This document shows, piece after piece, positions 13,859-52,386 of a stretch of DNA of 64,000 bases. Within the stretch, counting starts at the first letter, position 1; each line of letters starts with the position of its first letter. Origin of the DNA: a virus. Its lineage: Duplodnaviria; Heunggongvirae; Uroviricota; Caudoviricetes. The stretch covers positions 25,787 through 89,786 of the IMG/VR virus record IMGVR_UViG_3300029288_003766; one strand, written 5' to 3'. The translations under genes and the position numbers were made by a program. Below the pieces are notes generated by a model. The model saw only the letters and a list, made by a program, of their open reading frames with translations, was not told the DNA's origin and searched no databases.

Positions 13859-14126
13859 TCCATTTGTGAACCCGAACTTGGTTATACAACTGTTTCTTGG
13901 CCAGTTCTATTATTACATCATTCAATACTACATCTTCTTCTTTTATTGCTTTATAATTTCTATTATCAAGACGGGAGTAAGATTTAACTATTTGAAATTT
14001 ATGACGAGGGGTTGGGCGGGTCTCTAAGCTATACCTGTCTAAAACCAGGTGAAACTCATTCTGGAAATAGAAAGTATATACTTCACGGTTTAGTTTGTCT
14101 CCTTCTTTCTGCAGTATTATTTCCAT
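13842..14126 (-). CDS. hypothetical protein (94 aa)
   Basis: ORF in operon orientation. Confidence 0.4.
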   Translation of the reverse strand: MEIILQKEGDKLNREVYTFYFQNEFHLVLDRYSLETRPTPRHKFQIVKSYSRLDNRNYKAIKEEDVVLNDVIIELAKKQLYNQVRVHKWNDGRG

Positions 14127-14137
14127 GACCCCTCCTA

Positions 14138-14518
14138 TTAGACCTTATGACCGTACCTATATAATCCTAGTTCGTTGCAACACTGTTTAAATCCCTTACC
14201 ATATCCGTTGCCACCACGGCTCATATGAAGCAAGTGGGCCAGCTCGTGTTTGAAAAGACGGGTTAGCTTGCCGTCCTTTACACAAGTCTCAGGCTTACGA
14301 CTTTTTATACAGATATAACCGCTAAACTTATCAAGACTGCCATATCTTTTCAACATCCTTTGGTTTTCTTTACCTATAATATGGCAGTGGCCAGATCTTC
14401 TGATGTTGCTACCTTCTTTACGTTCTATACAACCCCCGAGGAACGTGCCTCGGTAGCCGGCCTTGAAAATCTTCTCATAGATGTCTAATGGGATTAAGGT
14501 ATCATCAAGCAGTGGCAT
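14138..14518 (-). CDS. HExxH zinc metallopeptidase-like protein (SprT/WLM-like)
   Basis: HELAHLLH motif plus Cys/His-rich segments (GHCHIIG, CCNELG); 126 aa. Confidence 0.45.
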   Translation of the reverse strand: MPLLDDTLIPLDIYEKIFKAGYRGTFLGGCIERKEGSNIRRSGHCHIIGKENQRMLKRYGSLDKFSGYICIKSRKPETCVKDGKLTRLFKHELAHLLHMSRGGNGYGKGFKQCCNELGLYRYGHKV

Positions 14519-14527
14519 AGTGTCTCC

Positions 14528-14830
14528 TTAGAAATTATAATCGTAAAAATAAATCGGTTTATCTGAAAGTATATGAATGCCTAAATCTGATTTCCAGCCC
14601 CTTTTGCCTAATCTTGCTCTTATGATTGGAGCTGTTTCATCAGAGGTTATTTCCCATTCCTGATCTTGCTGGTTTACCATAGTACCACAAAATCCACCTA
14701 CCCTGAAATCTTTTTTCCATGGTAATTCTTTTGCTTTCATTGCTCTTATTTCAATTGTCTTGGGAGATATTTCTTTGATTACTTCGAAAGGTTTGATGTC
14801 GCTATACATATGTAGGTTTGCGTATTTCAT
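14528..14830 (-). CDS. hypothetical protein (100 aa), first gene of leftward operon
   Basis: AGGAGG RBS (reverse complement of ctcctt at 14837-14842) precedes its start codon on the minus strand at 14828-14830. Confidence 0.5.
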   Translation of the reverse strand: MKYANLHMYSDIKPFEVIKEISPKTIEIRAMKAKELPWKKDFRVGGFCGTMVNQQDQEWEITSDETAPIIRARLGKRGWKSDLGIHILSDKPIYFYDYNF

Positions 14831-15127
14831 CTGCCCTCCTTGTTAAAACTTCTATCTGAGTGTCTTTACTATATCATAGATCTTTTTGTTTGTCAAGCAT
14901 TATTTTTTCTATTTTAAGTGTTTGTTTCCAAGTAGTTATGCCTACGTTTTATAAATTTTATAAATCTATTTATGGATATTACTATAATTTTTTGTGTTTG
15001 TCAAGAACTTTTTTGTATAAGGTGTTCTAAAAATAATCATAATTTTTTCCTACTTCCCAGCTATTATATAGTAGGATGGGGTAGCAACCTTATATTACTA
15101 AAATCAAAACACAATTGGAGAAAAATT
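14831..15127. promoter_or_regulatory. AT-rich divergent control region between leftward and rightward gene blocks
   Basis: 297-bp gene-free region. It carries duplicated GTTTGTCAAG boxes (14886-14895 and 14994-15003), a TTTTATAAATTTTATAAA box at 14947-14964, and the conserved promoter-like motif at 15035-15076. Confidence 0.6.
15035..15076 (+). promoter_or_regulatory. conserved promoter-like motif copy A (ATCATAATTTTTTCCTACTTCCCAGCTATTATATAGTAGGAT)
   Basis: Near-identical 42-bp motif at 15035, 36409, 44347 and 59625. It contains a -10-like TATTAT/TATAAT and a flanking 6-bp inverted repeat CCTACT..AGTAGG. Each copy sits about 35-50 nt upstream of a plus-strand start codon. Confidence 0.55.
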
Positions 15128-24455: not shown

Positions 24456-25569
24456 CTTTGTGGTTATAGGATGTCAATTCGGAGACGAAGGCAAGGGATT
24501 GGTAACTGATTGGTTATGTTCTCAATCCTCAAAACCGGCTGAGGTAGTAAGATTTACCGGGGGGCATCAATGCGGCCATACTGTTGTAGTCGACGGTAAG
24601 AGGCATGTGTTCTCCAGCTTTGGTTCAGGAACGTTAAGAGGAGTTCCTACTTATTGGTCACATTTCTGTACGGTTAACCCAATAGGATTTGTTAACGAGT
24701 TGATGATATTACAAGAAAAGGATATTGAACCTGAAATATTTATAGAAGGAGATTGCCCTGTTACTACTCCTTATGATGTTTTAAATAATAAGTGGGATCA
24801 CGAAATTAAACAACATGGTAGCTGTGGTGTAGGATTTGGAGCAACAATGCAGAGAGAAGAAGATTTCTATTCTTTGACATTTTATGATCTGTTCTTCCCC
24901 GATATATTAAGGGAAAAATTGAAGAATATTAATGAATGCTACTATGAGATGACCGGAGTAGATGTTAATATAGATTCATTCCTGAGATGCTGCAACACGA
25001 TGACAAAAATTGATAATATAAAGATGAAGGTCCCTACCGGGATTAAGGAAAAAATATTTGAGGGAGCGCAGGGGCTTATGTTAGATCAACATTTTGGAGT
25101 CTTTCCTAATGTTACAAGATCTAATACAGGAACTAAGAATTTAGTAGATGCTGGTTGGATTAAGGAAGAAGATGAAATATATTTAGTAACTCGTGCTTAC
25201 CAAACTAGGCACGGCAACGGGTTTATGACAAATGAAAATATTCCACATAATATTAAAAAAAATATACATGAAACTAACGTAGAGAACGCCTATCAAGGTA
25301 AATTTAGAAGGACCTTGTTAGATCTGTCTTTATTAGAATATAGCATAAACAAGGATGATTTTATACGCAACTCAAATAATAAGAGGCTAATAATTACCTG
25401 TCTTGATCATATAGAGAATGAACATAGATTTACATATAAAGGTGATACAGTAAACTGCTTGAACGAGGACGAATTTGTTTCTAAAATTTCGGATATTCTA
25501 GGTATAAAAACAATTTATTTAAGTCATTCAGAAGATTCTAAAAACATTATACAATGGAAAAAACAATGA
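24448..25569 (+). CDS. adenylosuccinate synthetase family protein (PurA homolog; candidate PurZ-type 2-aminoadenylosuccinate synthase)
   Basis: VVIGCQFGDEGKGLVTD (P-loop GDEGKGK-like) and GGHQCGHTV (GGHNAGHTV-like) PurA motifs. 373 aa, shorter than bacterial PurA. Phage context. Confidence 0.7.
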   Translation: MSNFVVIGCQFGDEGKGLVTDWLCSQSSKPAEVVRFTGGHQCGHTVVVDGKRHVFSSFGSGTLRGVPTYWSHFCTVNPIGFVNELMILQEKDIEPEIFIEGDCPVTTPYDVLNNKWDHEIKQHGSCGVGFGATMQREEDFYSLTFYDLFFPDILREKLKNINECYYEMTGVDVNIDSFLRCCNTMTKIDNIKMKVPTGIKEKIFEGAQGLMLDQHFGVFPNVTRSNTGTKNLVDAGWIKEEDEIYLVTRAYQTRHGNGFMTNENIPHNIKKNIHETNVENAYQGKFRRTLLDLSLLEYSINKDDFIRNSNNKRLIITCLDHIENEHRFTYKGDTVNCLNEDEFVSKISDILGIKTIYLSHSEDSKNIIQWKKQ

Positions 25570-47303: not shown

Positions 47304-48056
47304 ATGAAGCATGGTTATGCTTATTTAGTAACAGATTTGCTGAACAAACATAATCTACCTAATCCTTTCTATGTTGGCAAATGTCAATCTGATAAGTTTA
47401 ATTCAAACTACTTTGGTAGTGGTAAATTTATTAGAAATGTTGTTAATAAAGATAGACAAGAAAATGGTGGTAAAGTAGTAAACTTTAAGCTTAAGTTGGT
47501 TGGGTGGGCGCATAATAAAGACAAACTTAAGGAATTGGAAAGATCTTGGATAAAAGAAATGGATTGTATTTGGCCGAAAGGTTATAACATTACTGAAGGT
47601 GGAGAAGGCGGAGATACTTTTACAGATAACCCAAACAAAGAAGAAGTAAGGGAGAAGATGAAGAAGCCGCATAAGCCTATGTCTGAATCGACAAAAAATA
47701 AAATGAGAAAACCAAAATCTGAAGAGCATAGGAAAAATATGCTGGGGGCTGAATCTGAGGAGACTAGGAGGAAAAAGAGAAAACCTTTAGAAGAAAGGGG
47801 GCATAAGTTTGATTGTATCTGTTGCGTTTGCAAAGCTAAAAAAGGAATACCTAAAAACCATAAACTGGATTGTACTTGTGGTGTTTGTAAAGCGAAAAGA
47901 GGTGAAACAAAAGGTGTGCTTAACGTAGGAATTAAAAGAAGTAAACCTAGTTGTTGGAAAGGTAAAAAACGTGGACCACAAAGTAGAGAACATGCAATGA
48001 AGAAGGCTTGGCCAAAAGGTAAAAAGAGAAAATTATTAACTAATCAAGATTCATAA
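47304..48056 (+). CDS. GIY-YIG homing endonuclease with NUMOD3 repeats
   Basis: HGYAYLVTDL...FYVGKC, YNITEGGEGG, repeated basic NUMOD3-like units and paired CxCxVCKAK zinc knuckles. Confidence 0.75.
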   Translation: MKHGYAYLVTDLLNKHNLPNPFYVGKCQSDKFNSNYFGSGKFIRNVVNKDRQENGGKVVNFKLKLVGWAHNKDKLKELERSWIKEMDCIWPKGYNITEGGEGGDTFTDNPNKEEVREKMKKPHKPMSESTKNKMRKPKSEEHRKNMLGAESEETRRKKRKPLEERGHKFDCICCVCKAKKGIPKNHKLDCTCGVCKAKRGETKGVLNVGIKRSKPSCWKGKKRGPQSREHAMKKAWPKGKKRKLLTNQDS

Positions 48057-48068
48057 CAAGGGGGAGAC

Positions 48069-48581
48069 ATGAAGCTAATAGAAGGAATGAAAAAAATTAC
48101 AGAACTACAACGCAAGGCTGAAGATTTAAGGAGCAAGGTTAAGCTTCATTGTGCACACCAGAGTGTAGAGAAACCGGTATATGAAAGTCAACAGAACCAG
48201 ATAGATGAGTGGATCCAGGCTCATAGTGATATATTAAAAGAGATTTTGAAACTGAGAGTGGCTATACAAAAAACCAATTTGGCTACTCCTGTTACAATAG
48301 AGTTGGGTGGGGTAAATGTTACAAAAAGTATCGCTGAGTGGATACACCGCAGGAGAGAGTTAGCTATCACAGAGTGCGCGATGTGGGAAAGCCTTACTGA
48401 TAGGGGGTTGAGAGAGGGAGTAATAACTACAAGTCAGAACGAGAAGGTCCCGGTTTCAATAGTTCGTTATTATAATCCGGCAAAAAGAGACAAGAATATC
48501 GATATTTTTAAAAATGAGCCTAGTGTGATTGATCGTACTTTGGAGGTAAAGAACGCAGTCACTGATCTTATAGAAGATTAG
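48069..48581 (+). CDS. hypothetical protein (170 aa)
   Basis: GGGGAG RBS; no family recognised. Confidence 0.5.
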   Translation: MKLIEGMKKITELQRKAEDLRSKVKLHCAHQSVEKPVYESQQNQIDEWIQAHSDILKEILKLRVAIQKTNLATPVTIELGGVNVTKSIAEWIHRRRELAITECAMWESLTDRGLREGVITTSQNEKVPVSIVRYYNPAKRDKNIDIFKNEPSVIDRTLEVKNAVTDLIED

Positions 48582-49232
48582 AAACGTACAGGGGGCTCAT
48601 GTGTTCAGATGCATATGGACGTAGTACCCCTACCCAAAGGGTTTAGCTACAGGGTTGGAAGGATGCTAAAATGAGCTTGTTGTACCAAGAGTTCCTAAAG
48701 AAGAAGTTGATTAAAAAGATTATTGCTCTTTTGAGATATATTAAATGCCACGAACAGAGATATAAAACTGGCAAAAGATAAGCGATTCTGCTATCGTTAA
48801 AGTGGAATACCGTGCGACCCTTAATCGCAATTGGATATTGATGACCCTCAATGACTTGTTCATTTAGGATCAACATATAAAAAAACTCAAGGCTTAAGAA
48901 AGTAAGACCAAAGTGAGTAAGGCTCAAAACCGGTAAGGGAGTAAGAGTACAGGTAGTAAGGCTAAACTTGAAAGCTCTGGCAAGTACGACAGCCAACTGA
49001 TTTTACTTGACAGTAAGTGAGTAGAGAACGACCTGGAACAAGTTATGTTTGCTTATTTTTCCCAACCAGAACTTTTCAGGCTTCCTGATTTGGGGGCATT
49101 TATAAATTTAGGGGCGGGCGAAAAAGGGGCTGATGACAACAAGAGTGTTTTATCTTGGCTCTTAGTAGCTACGGTTGAATACGTAGGCGTTGACAACCTA
49201 CCGTCCCAAAGAGATAAATAAGGAGGGGTAAA
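48582..49232. other. 650-bp gene-free region with GTAAG iteron cluster and G-rich boxes (candidate replication origin or ncRNA locus)
   Basis: No credible plus-strand ORF. GTAAG at 48901, 48916, 48932, 48940, 48955 and 49012. AGTAAGGCT-AAA repeated twice. GGGGCAT / AGGGGCGGGCG / AGGGGCTG boxes at 49091-49130. Confidence 0.4.
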
Positions 49233-49541
49233 ATGGGGGTAGCAGCAGAAGAAAAGATTTGCGAAATGAGATTGCTCATCTCAGTAAAGAATCTTGAATG
49301 GTTCAAGAAAGAGTTCCCGAGTTTTAAATGGGAAGCAGGCGATACTACTCTGCGTTGGAACGCAAACAACTCTGAAGAAGTGGAAATGGCCAGAAAAGCT
49401 TTTGAAGCTTACAAGAAGAAAAATCCTAAGGCCCTGGCTTTCAAAGTTAATAAAGATGATAAGAAAGATACACAAGAATTGAATGAATTTGATCCCAACG
49501 CTGAGATGATCATCTGTCAGGAATTTATGCAAAAAGGATAG
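49233..49541 (+). CDS. hypothetical protein (102 aa)
   Basis: AAGGAGGGG RBS; Lys-rich. Confidence 0.5.
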   Translation: MGVAAEEKICEMRLLISVKNLEWFKKEFPSFKWEAGDTTLRWNANNSEEVEMARKAFEAYKKKNPKALAFKVNKDDKKDTQELNEFDPNAEMIICQEFMQKG

Positions 49542-49543
49542 AT

Positions 49544-50521
49544 ATGCCATTTACTGATACATTACCTATGCCTGTTATTAATAGTTATAGATTTTATAAT
49601 CAATACAATCTTCCCGTTGGTTTTCAATTAGGTGTTTCTGTAGATTCTGGTTTGCTTGCTCATAGGATTGATTTAAGTTTTCCTCTACATAATGGCCAAA
49701 GAAGACATGATTCAATTACTGTTCCTGTGCAAGCAATAGCTGATAACCCACAAGTTGAACAAGCTTGTGTTGATGAACTTCTACAGAGAGCTAATCGTGA
49801 AATTCGTCAAACGATTCAAAATAATATTCAAGATCATATGGGAGGTGCTGGTGTGACCGGACCTGGATATATTGATTATGGAACATGCGTAGATTATTCT
49901 AGTACAGCTGTAGAATATGCGGGGGCTACTGGTGCTTGTGGTGGAGCTGGTACTGGGTGGGGTGAATATGTTTCTCTAAGCCCAATTACTATTGGTTCTT
50001 TGAGTAGGAAATTTGTGCTTAATGTTAAGATTAAGTGGGGCAGGCATACTCTTACAGTATGTAAGCAGGTTGAGTTGGGGGCAGCGGATAATGTTGAAAT
50101 TACACAAGAAGATATAGATCAGGCCAGAGTCAATTATATTAAGAATTTAAACATTACTATCTTGACAAAGAAGGCCGAAAGAAAGGCTGAGGATCTTCTT
50201 AAGACTTTTATCAGTGATATGGACTTTAGAGATTTCAAGGAAAAAGGGTACTTCACGGTAAAAAGTGGTAATAGGTTATTTAAAATTTACAGAGATAGCC
50301 ATAAATGGGTGGATACCTGGGAGAAGCGCAAAGATGGTATATTTATTCCTAAGAACAGGCTTTGCACCCATACGGCAACCCGGGACCTGCCTTTGGCTGA
50401 TGAGGCATTACAGAAGCTTATGCTGGTTAGGAGTAATAGGATTGAGCAATATGCCAACGTTCATTCTATTGACGCAAATATGATGGGAGAGATTCACGAA
50501 CGTGATTTAGCCTTGGTTTAG
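49544..50521 (+). CDS. hypothetical protein with Gly-rich central segment (325 aa)
   Basis: Long ORF with a locally higher-GC Gly-rich stretch (GGAGVTGPG, GATGACGGAGTGWG). Confidence 0.5.
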   Translation: MPFTDTLPMPVINSYRFYNQYNLPVGFQLGVSVDSGLLAHRIDLSFPLHNGQRRHDSITVPVQAIADNPQVEQACVDELLQRANREIRQTIQNNIQDHMGGAGVTGPGYIDYGTCVDYSSTAVEYAGATGACGGAGTGWGEYVSLSPITIGSLSRKFVLNVKIKWGRHTLTVCKQVELGAADNVEITQEDIDQARVNYIKNLNITILTKKAERKAEDLLKTFISDMDFRDFKEKGYFTVKSGNRLFKIYRDSHKWVDTWEKRKDGIFIPKNRLCTHTATRDLPLADEALQKLMLVRSNRIEQYANVHSIDANMMGEIHERDLALV

Positions 50522-50609
50522 GCTCTACAATGCCCTTATTTGGGGCGTAACCAGGCCTAATTTGAACGATTTTATACCAAAACGATGGAAATATTCACTA
50601 GGGGTAAAT

Positions 50610-50996
50610 ATGCGAAAAATCAAGTTTAGGGTATGGAATAAGCATGATAAAGTTTTATTTTATCCGCAGGGTTTATGGTGGTATGATGGCGGCCCCCATA
50701 CTTTGAGATTTAAGGATTGCGACAAGGGGCTTCCTAAAGTTACTGGTTTTACAGGAGCTTCTTTCTTTGAGTTGATGGAATTTACTGGCCTAAAAGACAA
50801 GAATAAAAAAGATATTTACGAAGGAGATATTTTGAAATGGAGACAAGGGGTTGGCTGGATTATTATGCCTGTAGTAGCAGATGAATATGCTACTGGTTTT
50901 TTCCCTTTTTCAAGGACTACACAAATACCTACTCCAGATAGTAGGGAAGTAGAGATTATTGGTAATATTTATGAAAACCCGGAGCTGGTAAAATGA
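50610..50996 (+). CDS. YopX-family phage protein
   Basis: Start at the ATG at 50610 (MRKIKFRVWNK); C-terminal IIGNIYENPELVK. Confidence 0.7.
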   Translation: MRKIKFRVWNKHDKVLFYPQGLWWYDGGPHTLRFKDCDKGLPKVTGFTGASFFELMEFTGLKDKNKKDIYEGDILKWRQGVGWIIMPVVADEYATGFFPFSRTTQIPTPDSREVEIIGNIYENPELVK

Positions 50997-51439
50997 GAGA
51001 AATAAAGTTTAGAATATGGGATAAAGAAAGGAAGAATTGGGGTTGGACTTACTCTTTGGCCTTACATTGTTCTGGCCAGTTATATAGTCACCCTGGTTGT
51101 CATAATCAAACTCCTCATTATGAGATAATGCTATCTACCGGTCTTAAAGACAAAAATGGTAAGGAAATCTATGAGGGAGATATAATAAAATGGTCGGAGG
51201 ATCATTTAACGGATGGTGGTGAAAACATAAAGACTATAAAAGACATTGGTGAAGTGATTTGGTCACCAGAGTTTGCTATGTTTGGTTTGCGGGGTAGAGA
51301 ACTTGGTCATTGGCAGTTTTATGAACATCAGGAATACGAGGTTCTTGGTAATATCTATGAAAACCCTGAACTAAGAATAAAACAGAAAACAGCGGAAGAT
51401 CGGGTAAATGATATAGAATCGTTAAAAAATGAAAAATGA
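50993..51439 (+). CDS. YopX-family phage protein
   Basis: MREIKFRIWDK ... VLGNIYENPELRIK. Confidence 0.7.
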   Translation: MREIKFRIWDKERKNWGWTYSLALHCSGQLYSHPGCHNQTPHYEIMLSTGLKDKNGKEIYEGDIIKWSEDHLTDGGENIKTIKDIGEVIWSPEFAMFGLRGRELGHWQFYEHQEYEVLGNIYENPELRIKQKTAEDRVNDIESLKNEK

Positions 51440-51998: not shown

Positions 51999-52098
51999 TG
52001 AATAAAGTGGAAGCTAATATTTTTGTTAAGTTTTTGATAATTATTGCTGTTCTCGCCGCGTTCGCTATTTACCTTGGGCAGCATAGCAAATAAAATTT

Positions 52099-52365
52099 GG
52101 GGCATAGAGAGTTCCTATTAACTTTCTCATACAAAGACAATACTCTCCGCCCCTTGATTACGGGACATAAAGAGTTCCTATACTTGTTAGAAGGCAGCCC
52201 TTCGGGGCTGCATCAAAATTACTCTTCGTCCCTAATAACTAGGCAAAGGAAGTTCCTATTAAAATGGAAAATGTCCCCGAAAGGGGACACTTAAAATACT
52301 TCCCGCCTTATAATTTGGACATCGGGAGTTCCTATTAAAATCCTGTTAAGATATACTCCCCGTCC
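52099..52365 (+). repeat. tandem array of four degenerate ~65-80-bp units (GGRCAT..AGAGTTCCTAT ... AATACTCYCCGYCC)
   Basis: AGTTCCTAT at 52110, 52173, 52251 and 52327. ACTCYCCGYCC at 52142, 52221, 52298 and 52355. Units 2 and 3 each carry an inserted perfect hairpin, GCAGCCC-TTCG-GGGCTGC at 52194-52211 and GTCCCC-GAAA-GGGGAC at 52273-52288. Confidence 0.6.
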
Positions 52366-52386
52366 ATTTTATAAAAGGATGGATAG

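What the first reader, a model, noticed from the sequence alone, without database searches (positions are those of the whole stretch)
48582..49232. 650-bp gene-free island with GTAAG iterons and G-rich boxes: candidate origin or ncRNA locus
This is the longest non-coding stretch in the window. It holds six GTAAG copies, mostly at 8-16-nt spacing, including two AGTAAGGCT-AAA repeats. It also has a trio of G-rich boxes (GGGGGCAT, AGGGGCGGGCG, AGGGGCTG) and one AGAGTTCCTA box shared with the 52.1-kb array. A hairpin ACGTAGG-CGTTGACAA-CCTACCGT presents TTGACA in its loop just before gene 49233. Iterons plus a long intergenic region between replication-associated genes suggest an origin. A long ncRNA is an alternative.
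Basis: seen in the sequence. Interest (0 to 1): 0.6.

Follow-up and report, generated by a model that had tools for sequence, protein, structure and literature searches.

The report
New phage structured RNA, not origin
The "gene-free island" is a gene for a roughly 360-base folded RNA that matches no described family; it recurs in dozens of uncultured phages, always just after the same small protein gene, and carries a regularly spaced row of AAG(G) motifs that looks like a docking rail for a partner.

Summary
Window 48743-49101 (+) encodes a pseudoknotted non-coding RNA of about 360 nt.

- **Relatives:** at least 22 were read in full, and more than 50 were detected in IMG/VR phage contigs.
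- **Covariation:** five helices covary. P1, P1b, P4 and P5 give 94% paired cells, with 20 of 29 pairs changed on both sides and 0 of 500 shuffles as good. P2 is supported by a cognate versus non-cognate strand test.
- **The GTAAG "iterons":** they are the window's version of a family-wide single-stranded array of 8-11 AAG(G) units. The period is about 7.5 nt, and the array sits at a fixed distance from the 3' domain.
- **Nested tRNAs:** seven of 22 relatives carry a complete tRNA at one fixed site inside the RNA, and two more carry a partial tRNA match. The window copy has none.
- **Linked protein gene:** the RNA follows a DUF6847/DIP1984-family gene on the same strand in all 21 loci with enough upstream sequence. 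Sixteen of those were found through the RNA alone.
- **Known families:** there is no Rfam 15 match, including GOLLD, ROOL, RNase P and tmRNA. No cultured phage carries the protein.
- **Origin signals:** the GC-skew minimum lies at about 14 kb, not here.

Best reading: a new class of ornate phage RNA that serves as a multivalent platform, most likely for the co-encoded protein. The function is inferred, not shown.

The parts
48069..48581 (+). DUF6847 / DIP1984-family protein gene (170 aa). It is the invariable upstream partner of the RNA.
   Evidence: Pfam PF20935 and NCBIfam DIP1984_fam at E = 6e-10, below the curated cut-off. A homolog lies upstream on the same strand in 21 of 21 RNA loci with enough sequence. 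1181 relatives at E <= 1e-5. The AF2 model is a helical bundle with a beta insertion (pLDDT 78) and has no PDB fold match. W91, H93, R94 and R95 of the WIHRRRDL stretch are invariant.
48689..48697 (+). GAGTTCCTA box, 46 nt upstream of P1. It may be a phage-specific promoter element for the RNA; this was not tested.
   Evidence: There are exact copies at 24641, 52109, 52172 and 52326. The flanks differ from those of the 52.1-kb copies.
48743..49101 (+). The whole structured ncRNA (about 359 nt), from the 5' strand of P1 to the 3' strand of P1.
   Evidence: The same modular architecture is seen in 22 phage loci. The ends are defined by covarying helix P1. The single-sequence MFE fold recovers P1 and P2.
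48743..48757 (+). 5' strands of the closing helices: P1 (48743-48749, AAAUGCC), bulged A (48750) and P1b (48751-48757, CGAACAG).
   Evidence: They pair with 49095-49101 and 49085-49092. Helix 1 has 14 pairs, 11 of them changed on both sides, and 92% of cells paired.
48758..48767 (+). Conserved junction AGAUA(U)AAAA. Together with the last AG of P1b it forms the motif AGAGAUAAAAAC.
   Evidence: It is invariant or nearly so in alignments A2 and A3. L005 and L062 carry hairpin insertions inside it, so it is an RNA element and not a promoter -10 box.
48768..48771 (+). P4 5' strand (CUGG), which pairs with CCAG at 49066-49069.
   Evidence: All 4 pairs show changes on both sides and 97.6% of cells are paired (helix 2).
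48773..48783 (+). P2 5' strand (AAAAGAUAAGC), a long-range partner of 49051-49060 (GCUUAUUUUU).
   Evidence: Cognate partners average an 8.2-bp run and -8.2 kcal/mol. Non-cognate partners average 6.3 bp and -5.3 kcal/mol. The helix is also in the MFE fold.
48784..48886 (+). Variable interior: the P3 hairpin with a possible pseudoknot (about 48784-48808), a hairpin with a 7-nt anticodon-like loop (48813-48829), and further hairpins. This is the site where relatives carry a nested tRNA.
   Evidence: Complete tRNAs lie at this position in L002, L003, L004, L005, L043, L050 and L102, and partial tRNA matches in L022 and L033. The window copy has none. The P3 pseudoknot was seen by eye only.
48887..48986 (+). 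Periodic single-stranded AAG(G) array.
   Evidence: Across the family, AAGG occurs 120 times against 30.8 expected. Spacing between successive AAG is 7 nt (59 times), 8 nt (37 times) and 14-16 nt (33 times). The array sits at a fixed distance from the 3' domain in all members.
49003..49031 (+). Px hairpin (UUACU/AGUAA, 49003-49016, holding the sixth GTAAG) followed by the conserved GUGAGUAGAGAACGA (family consensus GAGRGAAYGN).
   Evidence: Model R1 hits 48998-49100 at 77.9 bits, E = 4e-20. Conservation is visible in A4 and A5. Compensatory changes in the Px stem are visible in A5 by eye.
49032..49044 (+). P5 5' strand (CCUGGAAcAAGUU), which pairs with 49070-49080 (AACUUuUCAGG). P5 is pseudoknotted relative to P2 and P4.
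   Evidence: helix 3: 95% of cells paired, 5 pairs changed on both sides., 40 distinct sequences: 94% paired, 0 of 500 shuffles as good.
49051..49069 (+). Loop inside P5 that carries the 3' strands of P2 (49051-49060) and P4 (49066-49069).
49079..49101 (+). Invariant GGCUUCC (49079-49085), P1b 3' strand (49085-49092, with one bulged A), conserved GG (49093-49094) and P1 3' strand (49095-49101).
   Evidence: Columns G57-U64 and G69-G71 of A3 are invariant.

Best explanation
Window 48743-49101 (+) is the gene for a structured non-coding RNA of about 360 nt. It belongs to a family that has not been described and is confined, as far as I could see, to uncultured tailed phages.

**Fold.**
- Two stacked closing helices (P1, P1b) join the 5' and 3' ends.
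- Two long-range helices (P4, P2) and a crossing helix (P5) form a pseudoknotted core.
- The junctions of that core are almost invariant: AGAGAUAAAAAC, GAGRGAAYGNCC and GGCUUCC.

**What the core displays.**
- A purine-rich stretch with little internal complementarity (read by eye) that carries 8-11 AAG(G) motifs at a period of about 7.5 nt.
- In 9 of 22 relatives, a nested tRNA (7 complete) or a partial tRNA match (2).

**Genetic context.** The RNA is encoded directly after a DUF6847/DIP1984-family gene, and in most members it is probably co-transcribed with it.

**Most likely mechanism (inferred).** The core acts as a rigid clasp, and the periodic array is a multivalent rail on which several copies of one partner dock, one per unit of 7-8 nt. 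The co-encoded DUF6847 protein, with its invariant HRR residues in the WIHRRRDL stretch, is the leading candidate. Together they would form a phage ribonucleoprotein made during infection.

**Shown:** family conservation, the helices, the strand, the periodic array, and the gene linkage. **Inferred:** transcription, protein binding, and biological role.

**Confidence.** About 0.95 that this is a conserved structured RNA gene and not an origin, and about 0.4 for the protein-rail mechanism. The overall figure of 0.5 reflects the combined statement.
For: **Conservation.**
- The same modules appear in the same order in L001-L007, found through the protein.
- They also appear in about 16 further loci found through a DNA pattern from the 3' domain alone.

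**Covariation.**
- On strands extracted by sequence anchors only: 94.1% of 609 cells are paired, 20 of 29 pairs change on both sides, 133 cells are compensatory, and 0 of 500 shuffles do as well. Slid controls give 26-56% paired.
- Cognate strands pair far better than non-cognate strands for P1, P1b, P2, P4 and P5b.
- P5 is confirmed on 40 further distinct sequences.
- G-U pairs place the RNA on the + strand.

**RNA rather than promoter.** Hairpin insertions inside the AGAGAUA^AAAAC motif in L005 and L062 rule out a promoter reading of that motif.

**The array.**
- AAGG is enriched 3.9-fold.
- AAG spacing peaks at 7-8 nt and at 14-16 nt.
- Array positions are fixed relative to the 3' domain.

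**Gene linkage.**
- The DUF6847 gene lies upstream on the same strand in 21 of 21 loci.
- Of 64 loci found through the protein, 42 have a hit to model R1, 40 of them downstream of the gene.
- At least 10 more carry a variant 3' domain. Protein homologs at 25-30% identity (L310, L315) are still followed by strict (UUUUAAG)n-type arrays.

**Not a known family.** No Rfam family matches, even at E <= 10, in the window or in 8 relatives.
Against: - There are no expression data, and the host is unknown.
- The promoter and terminator scans find nothing convincing in the window.
- The single-sequence folding z-score is unremarkable at -1.3.
- Nothing shows directly that the DUF6847 protein binds RNA. 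Its model has no informative fold match, and the gene linkage could reflect co-transcription alone.
- The window copy has a 160-nt spacer between the gene and the RNA, and it lacks the nested tRNA.
- P2, P3 and Px rest on weaker tests than P1, P1b, P4 and P5.
- The 22 fully read members are related, so the shuffle control overstates significance. The slid control is the fairer one.
Confidence: 0.5

Rival explanations
1. RNA-only ornate assembly, like GOLLD or ROOL. The RNA oligomerises through its core, and the purine-rich array plus nested tRNA form a flexible internal linker or cargo. The DUF6847 gene is only a transcriptional neighbour.
For: It is phage-encoded and sits in or next to tRNA clusters, with 17 tRNAs downstream in L006. 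tRNAs are nested in a poorly conserved interior, and the core is conserved. GOLLD and ROOL are described the same way: near tRNA islands, with tRNAs sometimes in the GOLLD linker and disordered internal linkers (PMC12286853).
Against: The GOLLD and ROOL covariance models do not match, even at E <= 10. At about 300-470 nt it is smaller than ROOL or GOLLD. No protein-binding partner has been identified for ROOL, whereas here the gene link is strict at 21 of 21. It extends to protein homologs at 25-30% identity, where the array is the part of the RNA that survives.
Confidence: 0.2
2. Sponge or decoy for a host factor. The repeated single-stranded AAGG units would titrate a host RNA-binding protein, or the CCUU-containing 3' tail of 16S rRNA, in the way CsrB or RsmZ titrate CsrA.
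For: Many copies of one short motif are held in an unstructured stretch by a stable scaffold. AAGG is complementary to CCUU in the anti-Shine-Dalgarno tail (my own knowledge). Ribosomes have been reported to bind GOLLD in pull-downs (PMC12286853).
Against: The base after AAGG is variable, and the motif is neither GGA nor a full GGAGG. The strict period and the fixed register relative to the core are not needed for a simple sponge. The hosts appear diverse: locus GC around the RNA ranges from 0.34 to 0.66.
Confidence: 0.15
3. A cis-acting 3' UTR or operator. The protein binds the array on its own mRNA to auto-regulate its translation or stability, and the RNA has no function in trans.
For: In most members the RNA starts 10-30 nt after the stop codon, leaving no room for a separate promoter.
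Against: A pseudoknotted fold of 300-470 nt with near-invariant junctions and nested tRNAs is far more than an operator needs. Some members have long spacers, an inserted ORF with no DUF6847 match (L121), or promoter-like sites between the gene and the RNA.
Confidence: 0.1
4. Replication origin with GTAAG iterons, or an origin transcript that primes replication through an R-loop in the purine-rich stretch.
For: It lies inside the replication gene block: DnaB-like helicase, primase, UvsW-like helicase, clamp loader and a family A DNA polymerase. It is the longest non-coding stretch in the window. A purine-rich RNA would form stable RNA-DNA hybrids (my own knowledge).
Against: The skew minimum and the strand switch are at about 14-15 kb. 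There is no AT-rich region. The repeat period of 7-8 nt is out of phase with the DNA helix and limited to one strand. Selection acts on RNA base pairs, including G-U. In other phages the same element sits in unrelated contexts, for example beside a DHH phosphoesterase and unknown genes in L001.
Confidence: 0.03
5. A minimal RNase P-like ribozyme that processes the phage's tRNAs. GAGRGAAYG(U)CC and GGCUUC would mimic conserved regions CR-I and CR-V and helix P4 of RNase P RNA.
For: By eye, GAAYGUCC...GGCUUC resembles GAAAGUCC...GGCUUA of bacterial RNase P (my own knowledge of the E. coli M1 sequence). It is associated with tRNAs.
Against: No RNase P model matches at E <= 10. Six natural variants with GGGUUCC keep GAAUG unchanged, so the G-C pair that a P4 helix would need is not compensated. 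The same motif resembles CR-IV equally well, which suggests chance. The window itself has no tRNA genes.
Confidence: 0.03
6. The region encodes a small protein, namely the 58-aa ORF at 49045-49221 that gene callers report.
For: It is called as a gene in three public assemblies.
Against: The conserved bases fall in different reading frames in the window and in L001 (AGG CUU CCU against CAG GCU UCC). Several relatives lack the AUG. Conservation follows base pairing, not codons.
Confidence: 0.01

Closest known systems
GOLLD RNA (Rfam RF01998) and ROOL RNA (RF03087)
   Same: Both are large, pseudoknotted RNAs of unknown function, encoded by phages or prophages and found beside tRNA islands. GOLLD has a conserved region, a variable region and sometimes nested tRNAs (PMC12286853). 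Here the core is conserved, the interior is variable, and tRNAs are nested in 7 of 22 members.
   Different: There is no detectable match to either covariance model. This RNA is shorter, at about 300-470 nt. It has a periodic AAG(G) heptad array, which I do not know to have been described for GOLLD or ROOL. It is strictly linked to one protein gene family. Whether it oligomerises was not tested.
OLE RNA with its partner proteins (OapA and others)
   Same: It is a large ornate RNA that works as a ribonucleoprotein with dedicated partner proteins (PMC3413148, listed).
   Different: OLE is a chromosomal RNA of extremophilic Firmicutes. There is no sequence or structure match, and the partner proteins are unrelated.
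Protein-titrating or protein-wrapping RNAs with repeated short motifs: CsrB/RsmZ (GGA), TRAP-binding (G/U)AG repeats, and HutP-binding UAG-N4 repeats
   Same: Many copies of a motif of 3-4 nt lie in single-stranded RNA. TRAP and HutP sites are periodic, with a period of 7 nt for HutP (my own knowledge). The period here is 7-8 nt.
   Different: The motif is AAG(G). The array is clasped inside a large pseudoknotted scaffold. No known binding protein family is involved, and binding was not tested.
Phage T4 stable RNAs rnaC and rnaD (species 1 and 2) in the tRNA cluster
   Same: They are small stable RNAs of unknown function embedded in the tRNA region of a T4-type phage (annotation). rnaD even contains GUAAG motifs.
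   Different: Model R1 gives no hit at rnaC or rnaD, even with filters off and E <= 10. They are much shorter (119-139 nt) and have no DUF6847 neighbour.
Plasmid or phage replication origins with iterons
   Same: Clustered direct repeats lie in a long intergenic region among replication genes.
   Different: The repeats are 3-5 nt at a period of 7-8 nt on one strand. There is no AT-rich unwinding element and no skew inflection, and selection acts on RNA pairing.

Membership tests
Conserved structured ncRNA (generic) | Homologous sequences in independent genomes with compensatory base changes that preserve helices | tested here: met
   94.1% of cells paired, 20 of 29 pairs changed on both sides, 0 of 500 shuffles as good, slid controls at 56% or less. 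Searches agree.
Conserved structured ncRNA (generic) | No conserved reading frame | tested here: met
   The frame of the 58-aa ORF differs between the window and L001, and the AUG is absent in several relatives.
Conserved structured ncRNA (generic) | Transcribed as a discrete RNA | not testable with these tools
   There are no expression data. Only promoter-like sites upstream of the L006 copy, and none scored in the window.
Any Rfam 15 family (4227 models, including GOLLD, ROOL, OLE, RNase P, tmRNA, 6S and Y RNA) | Match to the family covariance model | tested here: not met
   The window gives nothing at gathering score. The region gives only 2 chance-level hits at E <= 10. Eleven relatives at gathering score and 8 at E <= 10 give only tRNA at or near the element.
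GOLLD / ROOL-type ornate phage RNA | Phage-encoded, near tRNA islands, tRNAs sometimes nested | tested here: met
   IMG/VR phage contigs. Nested tRNAs in L002, L003, L004, L005, L043, L050 and L102. Seventeen tRNAs downstream in L006.
GOLLD / ROOL-type ornate phage RNA | Homo-oligomeric nanocage | not testable with these tools
   This needs cryo-EM or native gels.
Replication origin with iterons | Direct repeats of roughly 12-22 bp bound by an initiator, usually in helical phase | tested here: not met
   The units are AAG(G) at a period of 7-8 nt on one strand. The only longer repeat is one 33-nt pair at 76% identity.
Replication origin with iterons | Adjacent AT-rich unwinding element | tested here: not met
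   GC is 0.36-0.45 across 48550-49300, against about 0.37 for the window.
Replication origin with iterons | GC-skew inflection or strand switch at the site | tested here: not met
   The cumulative skew minimum is at 12-14 kb and the gene-strand switch at about 14.9 kb. Skew is steadily positive at 48-50 kb.
Replication origin with iterons | Mapped initiation of DNA synthesis | not testable with these tools
   This needs an experiment.
RNase P RNA | P4 helix formed by CR-I and CR-V, with the paired positions conserved | tested here: not met
   No RNase P model hit. C-to-G variants of GGCUUCC show no compensating change in GAAYG.
tmRNA | tRNA-like acceptor and T-arm formed by the ends, plus a tag reading frame | tested here: not met
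   ARAGORN finds no tmRNA in the window or in 21 relatives. There is no T-arm next to P1 and no CCA end (sequence read).
Type III toxin-antitoxin antitoxin RNA | Tandem repeats of about 34-45 nt upstream of an endoribonuclease toxin gene | tested here: not met
   The units are 7-8 nt and lie downstream of the gene. The protein matches no PADLOC model.
DIP1984 / DUF6847 protein family (the neighbouring gene) | Match to the family profile above its curated cut-off | tested here: inconclusive
   Pfam PF20935 scores 27.8 bits against a cut-off of 27. NCBIfam NF038048 scores 39.5 bits against a cut-off of 70. Most close relatives carry a precomputed PF20935 hit.

The most novel reading that the evidence does not exclude
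This is a founding example of an undescribed class of phage ribonucleoprotein. A pseudoknot-clasped RNA of 300-470 nt displays a rail of 8-11 AAG(G) units at a period of about 7.5 nt and sometimes a nested tRNA. Copies of the co-encoded DUF6847/DIP1984-family protein would polymerise on that rail. This would give a first function to that protein family, and it would be a new way for phages to package or present RNA during infection.
Probability: 0.35. Interest if true: 0.8.

Novelty: new variant of a known kind. Interest (0 to 1): 0.72.

Why it matters
- Large, intricately folded RNAs outside the ribosome, RNase P and introns are rare. The known phage examples, GOLLD and ROOL, remain without a function.
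- This family adds a third, unrelated class of ornate phage RNA. It brings two handles the others lack: an obligatory protein-gene partner (DUF6847/DIP1984, itself of unknown function, with about 1,200 relatives in metagenomes) and a strictly periodic single-stranded motif array that can be mutated and tested directly.
- That makes the question "what do ornate phage RNAs beside tRNA islands do?" open to experiment, through EMSA or cryo-EM of RNA plus protein.
- It also corrects annotation. Gene callers currently place a spurious 58-aa ORF over the most conserved part of the RNA.

Tried and rejected
- **Rfam:** scans of the window, the region and 19 relatives' loci gave only tRNAs at or near the element.
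- **tRNA and tmRNA:** ARAGORN found none in the window.
- **Nucleotide searches:** megablast and blastn of the region against 50,697 phage records gave no match.
- **Protein searches:** tblastn of the DUF6847 protein against phage records and against PLSDB plasmids gave no match.
- **Downstream gene:** a search for relatives of the 325-aa protein (49544-50521) found none.
- **Bacterial and archaeal genomes:** the pattern scan returned 120 loci. Model R1 found nothing real. The one 24-bit hit, in L234, reads as ordinary sequence without the other modules.
- **T4 rnaC/rnaD:** no R1 hit.
- **RNase P P4 resemblance:** rejected, because natural C-to-G variants are uncompensated.
- **AGAGATAAAA as a promoter -10 box:** rejected, because of the hairpin insertions in L005 and L062 and the wrong spacing to the upstream TTGA motif.
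- **Terminal GGCUUCC...GGGAGG hairpin as a simple terminator:** superseded, because those bases pair with the 5' end as covarying helices P1b and P1.
- **Protein fold search:** Foldseek against PDB gave no match below E = 0.5. PDB sequence search and PADLOC gave nothing.
- **Neighbouring genes in L001:** PHROGs gave no informative context.
- **Literature:** searches for DUF6847, DIP1984 and phage ncRNA terms found no description of this element.
Full report
**What is at the coordinates.** The window is part of a phage contig of about 215 kb. Its replication genes are only distantly T4-like; the clamp loader is about 36% identical to its pelagiphage and cyanophage counterparts. The interval 48582-49232 separates a 170-aa gene (48069-48581) from a 102-aa gene (49233-49541). 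The region contains the longest stretch in the window free of ORFs on the coding strand. The GTAAG cluster (6 in 120 nt) exceeds all 200 shuffles.

**Relatives.** The upstream protein belongs to DUF6847/DIP1984. Searching IMG/VR with it gave seven loci. In each, the homolog is followed by 500-850 nt without a credible gene and with the same order of sequence modules as the window. A DNA pattern taken from the 3' module alone retrieved about 16 more phage loci among many chance hits. Twenty-two members were read in full. GC content and flanking genes differ widely between them, so they are not copies of one phage.

**Anatomy and covariation.** The ends of the element pair with each other. P1 joins 48743-49 to 49095-101, and after one bulged A comes P1b, joining 48751-57 to 49085-92. 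A near-invariant junction, AGAGAUAAAAAC, follows. It leads to P4 (48768-71 with 49066-69) and to the long-range helix P2 (48773-83 with 49051-60). The 3' strands of P2 and P4 lie in the loop of P5 (49032-44 with 49070-80), so the core is pseudoknotted. P5 is flanked by the near-invariant GAGRGAAYGNCC and GGCUUCC.

I extracted the strands of P1, P1b, P4 and P5 from 21 members using sequence anchors only, never complementarity, and counted pairs. The result was 94.1% of cells paired, 20 of 29 pairs changed on both sides, and 133 compensatory cells. None of 500 shuffles reached any of these measures, and sliding the partners by 1-3 columns gave only 26-56% pairing. P2 has a variable register. For P2, and for the other helices too, each sequence's own partner strand pairs much better than partners taken from other members. 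A covariance model of the 3' domain (R1) scores the window at 77.9 bits. On 40 further distinct sequences P5 again shows 94% pairing, with 0 of 500 shuffles as good. Frequent G-U pairs place the RNA on the + strand, which is also the strand of the nested tRNAs. Two members carry hairpin insertions inside AGAGAUA^AAAAC, so that motif is part of the RNA and not a promoter.

**The "iterons".** Inside the domain closed by P2 lies a purine-rich stretch that shows little internal complementarity by eye. Across the family, AAGG occurs 120 times against 31 expected. CAAGG, GCAAG, UAAGG and GUAAG are the top 5-mers. Successive AAG motifs are spaced 7 nt (59 cases) or 8 nt (37 cases) apart, with secondary peaks at 14-16 and 21-23 nt. 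The positions of the units relative to the 3' domain are nearly the same in all members (about 91, 84, 77, 70, 62, 46, 38, 30 and 22 nt). The window's six GTAAG copies at spacings of 8-16 nt are therefore its version of an array of 8-11 units with a period of about 7.5 nt.

**Nested tRNAs.** Complete tRNA genes lie between the P3 region and the array in seven members, and partial matches to the tRNA model lie there in two more. Others have tRNAs immediately beside the element, and L006 has 17 downstream. The window copy has no tRNA or tRNA-like match. At that position it has a hairpin with a 7-nt loop (48813-29).

**Link to the protein gene.** Twenty-one RNA loci have enough upstream sequence to judge. 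All of them have a DUF6847 homolog upstream on the same strand, and 16 of these were found through the RNA alone. In the other direction, 64 loci were found through a protein alignment. Of these, 42 have an R1 hit, 40 of them downstream of the gene. At least 10 more carry a variant ("type 2") 3' domain after an AAG array. Protein homologs at 25-30% identity (L310, L315) are still followed by strict (UUUUAAG)n-like heptad arrays. The array is thus the part of the RNA that tracks the protein most deeply. The protein has about 1,200 metagenomic relatives, invariant W91, H93, R94 and R95 in the WIHRRRDL stretch, and a helical-bundle model with no informative structural neighbour. It has no homolog in 50,697 cultured-phage records or in PLSDB plasmids.

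**Why it is not an origin.** The cumulative GC skew falls until about 14 kb, where the gene strand switches, and rises steadily through 48-50 kb. There is no AT-rich segment. The repeats are short, confined to one strand and out of phase with the DNA helix. Selection is visible on RNA base pairs. In other phages the element sits outside replication modules.

**Comparison with known systems.** No Rfam 15 family matches the window or its relatives, even at E <= 10. In kind, it most resembles GOLLD and ROOL: ornate phage RNAs beside tRNA islands, with nested tRNAs and disordered linkers (PMC12286853). It fails their model-based membership test, and it differs in size, in the periodic array, and in its obligatory protein-gene partner. 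T4's rnaC and rnaD are not detectably related. A resemblance I noticed to helix P4 of RNase P did not survive a check against natural variants.

**Mechanism.** The fold, the family, the strand, the array and the gene linkage are shown. I infer that the pseudoknotted core is a clasp that presents a periodic single-stranded rail. I also infer that several copies of one partner dock on the rail, one per 7-8 nt, and that the co-encoded DUF6847 protein is the most likely partner. In most members the RNA begins 10-30 nt after the stop codon, which would favour assembly in cis on the nascent transcript. I put about 0.95 on "conserved structured RNA gene" and about 0.4 on the protein-rail mechanism. 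The main rivals are an RNA-only assembly, a sponge for a host factor, and an autoregulatory 3' UTR.

**Limits.**
- There are no expression data and the host is unknown.
- P3, its possible pseudoknot, and Px were judged by eye.
- The members are related, so the shuffle controls are generous. The slid controls are the fairer comparison.

Noticed in passing
window 52095-52385: This is the "52.1-kb array". It has four units, each with (A/G)AGTTCCTAT followed by a -10-like TATTAA or TATACT. Each unit is preceded at about 17 nt by TACTCnnCGnCC, and two units are separated by G+C-rich terminator-like hairpins (GCAGCCCTTCGGGGCTGC, GTCCCCGAAAGGGGAC). It looks like a stack of phage-specific promoters or small transcription units upstream of gene 52387. 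GAGTTCCTA also occurs at 24641 and 48689.
   Followed up: partly
window 47304-48056: A homing-endonuclease-like gene (PHROG 314, E = 6e-19; weak match to TIGR01453, group I intron endonuclease) sits directly upstream of the DUF6847 gene. In relative L121, an unrelated ORF rich in Cys and His lies between the DUF6847 gene and the RNA, so the module seems to tolerate or attract mobile insertions.
   Followed up: no
L043 4392-4467; L050 2047-2119 (-); L002 6615-6689: Some tRNAs nested in relatives have unusual anticodons: Asn-ATT, Ile-AAT, and one that ARAGORN cannot assign (loop CUUUAAU, possibly reading a stop codon). They may be decoys or suppressors rather than ordinary tRNAs.
   Followed up: no
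L257, L260, L270 (=L002), L273, L275, L277-L280, L283; L310, L315: A second variant of the RNA has a different 3' domain (AAAAUCCUGG...CAGGCUUCCCGUYGYGGG) that model R1 misses. Far relatives have near-perfect (UUUUAAG)n heptad arrays followed by AAAAUCCAG...CUGGCUGUUAU. A second covariance model is needed to capture them.
   Followed up: partly
L006/L007 about 1884-1948 (L006 coordinates): A sigma-70-like promoter lies just upstream of the conserved leader GUUCUUUGA that precedes P1. Read as TTGACA then TATAAT the spacer is 15 nt; the scan tool scores TTGACA-18-AATAGT at 10 of 12. At least some copies may therefore have their own promoter. A similar YUCUUUGA leader precedes P1 in several members (window: CUCUUUUGA, 48727-48735).
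   Followed up: partly
window about 14000-15000: The gene-strand switch (minus-strand genes up to 14830, plus-strand genes from 14972) coincides with the cumulative GC-skew minimum of the window. If an origin or divergent early-promoter region exists in this window, this is the better candidate.
   Followed up: no
window 49102-49232: The 130 nt between the RNA and gene 49233 hold the other two G-rich boxes (AGGGGCGGGCG, AGGGGCUG) and the hairpin at 49182-49207 with TTGACA in its loop. None of these is conserved in relatives, and they remain unexplained. The motif AAUUUA occurs 3-6 nt after P1 in several members.
   Followed up: no
window 50562-51439: Two adjacent YopX-domain paralogs (144 and 148 aa) lie downstream. 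The 64-kb window has no tRNA gene at all, although relatives place this RNA in tRNA clusters.
   Followed up: no
L022, L029 (inside the DUF6847 coding sequence): The string GAGATAAAAA, identical to the RNA junction motif, also occurs within the protein-coding sequence (codons for ...ERDKK...). This is probably coincidence.
   Followed up: no
L253 186-285; L305 2384-2477: In two loci the R1 hit lies just upstream of the DUF6847 gene instead of downstream. This could reflect tandem modules, a contig cut point, or a rearranged order.
   Followed up: no
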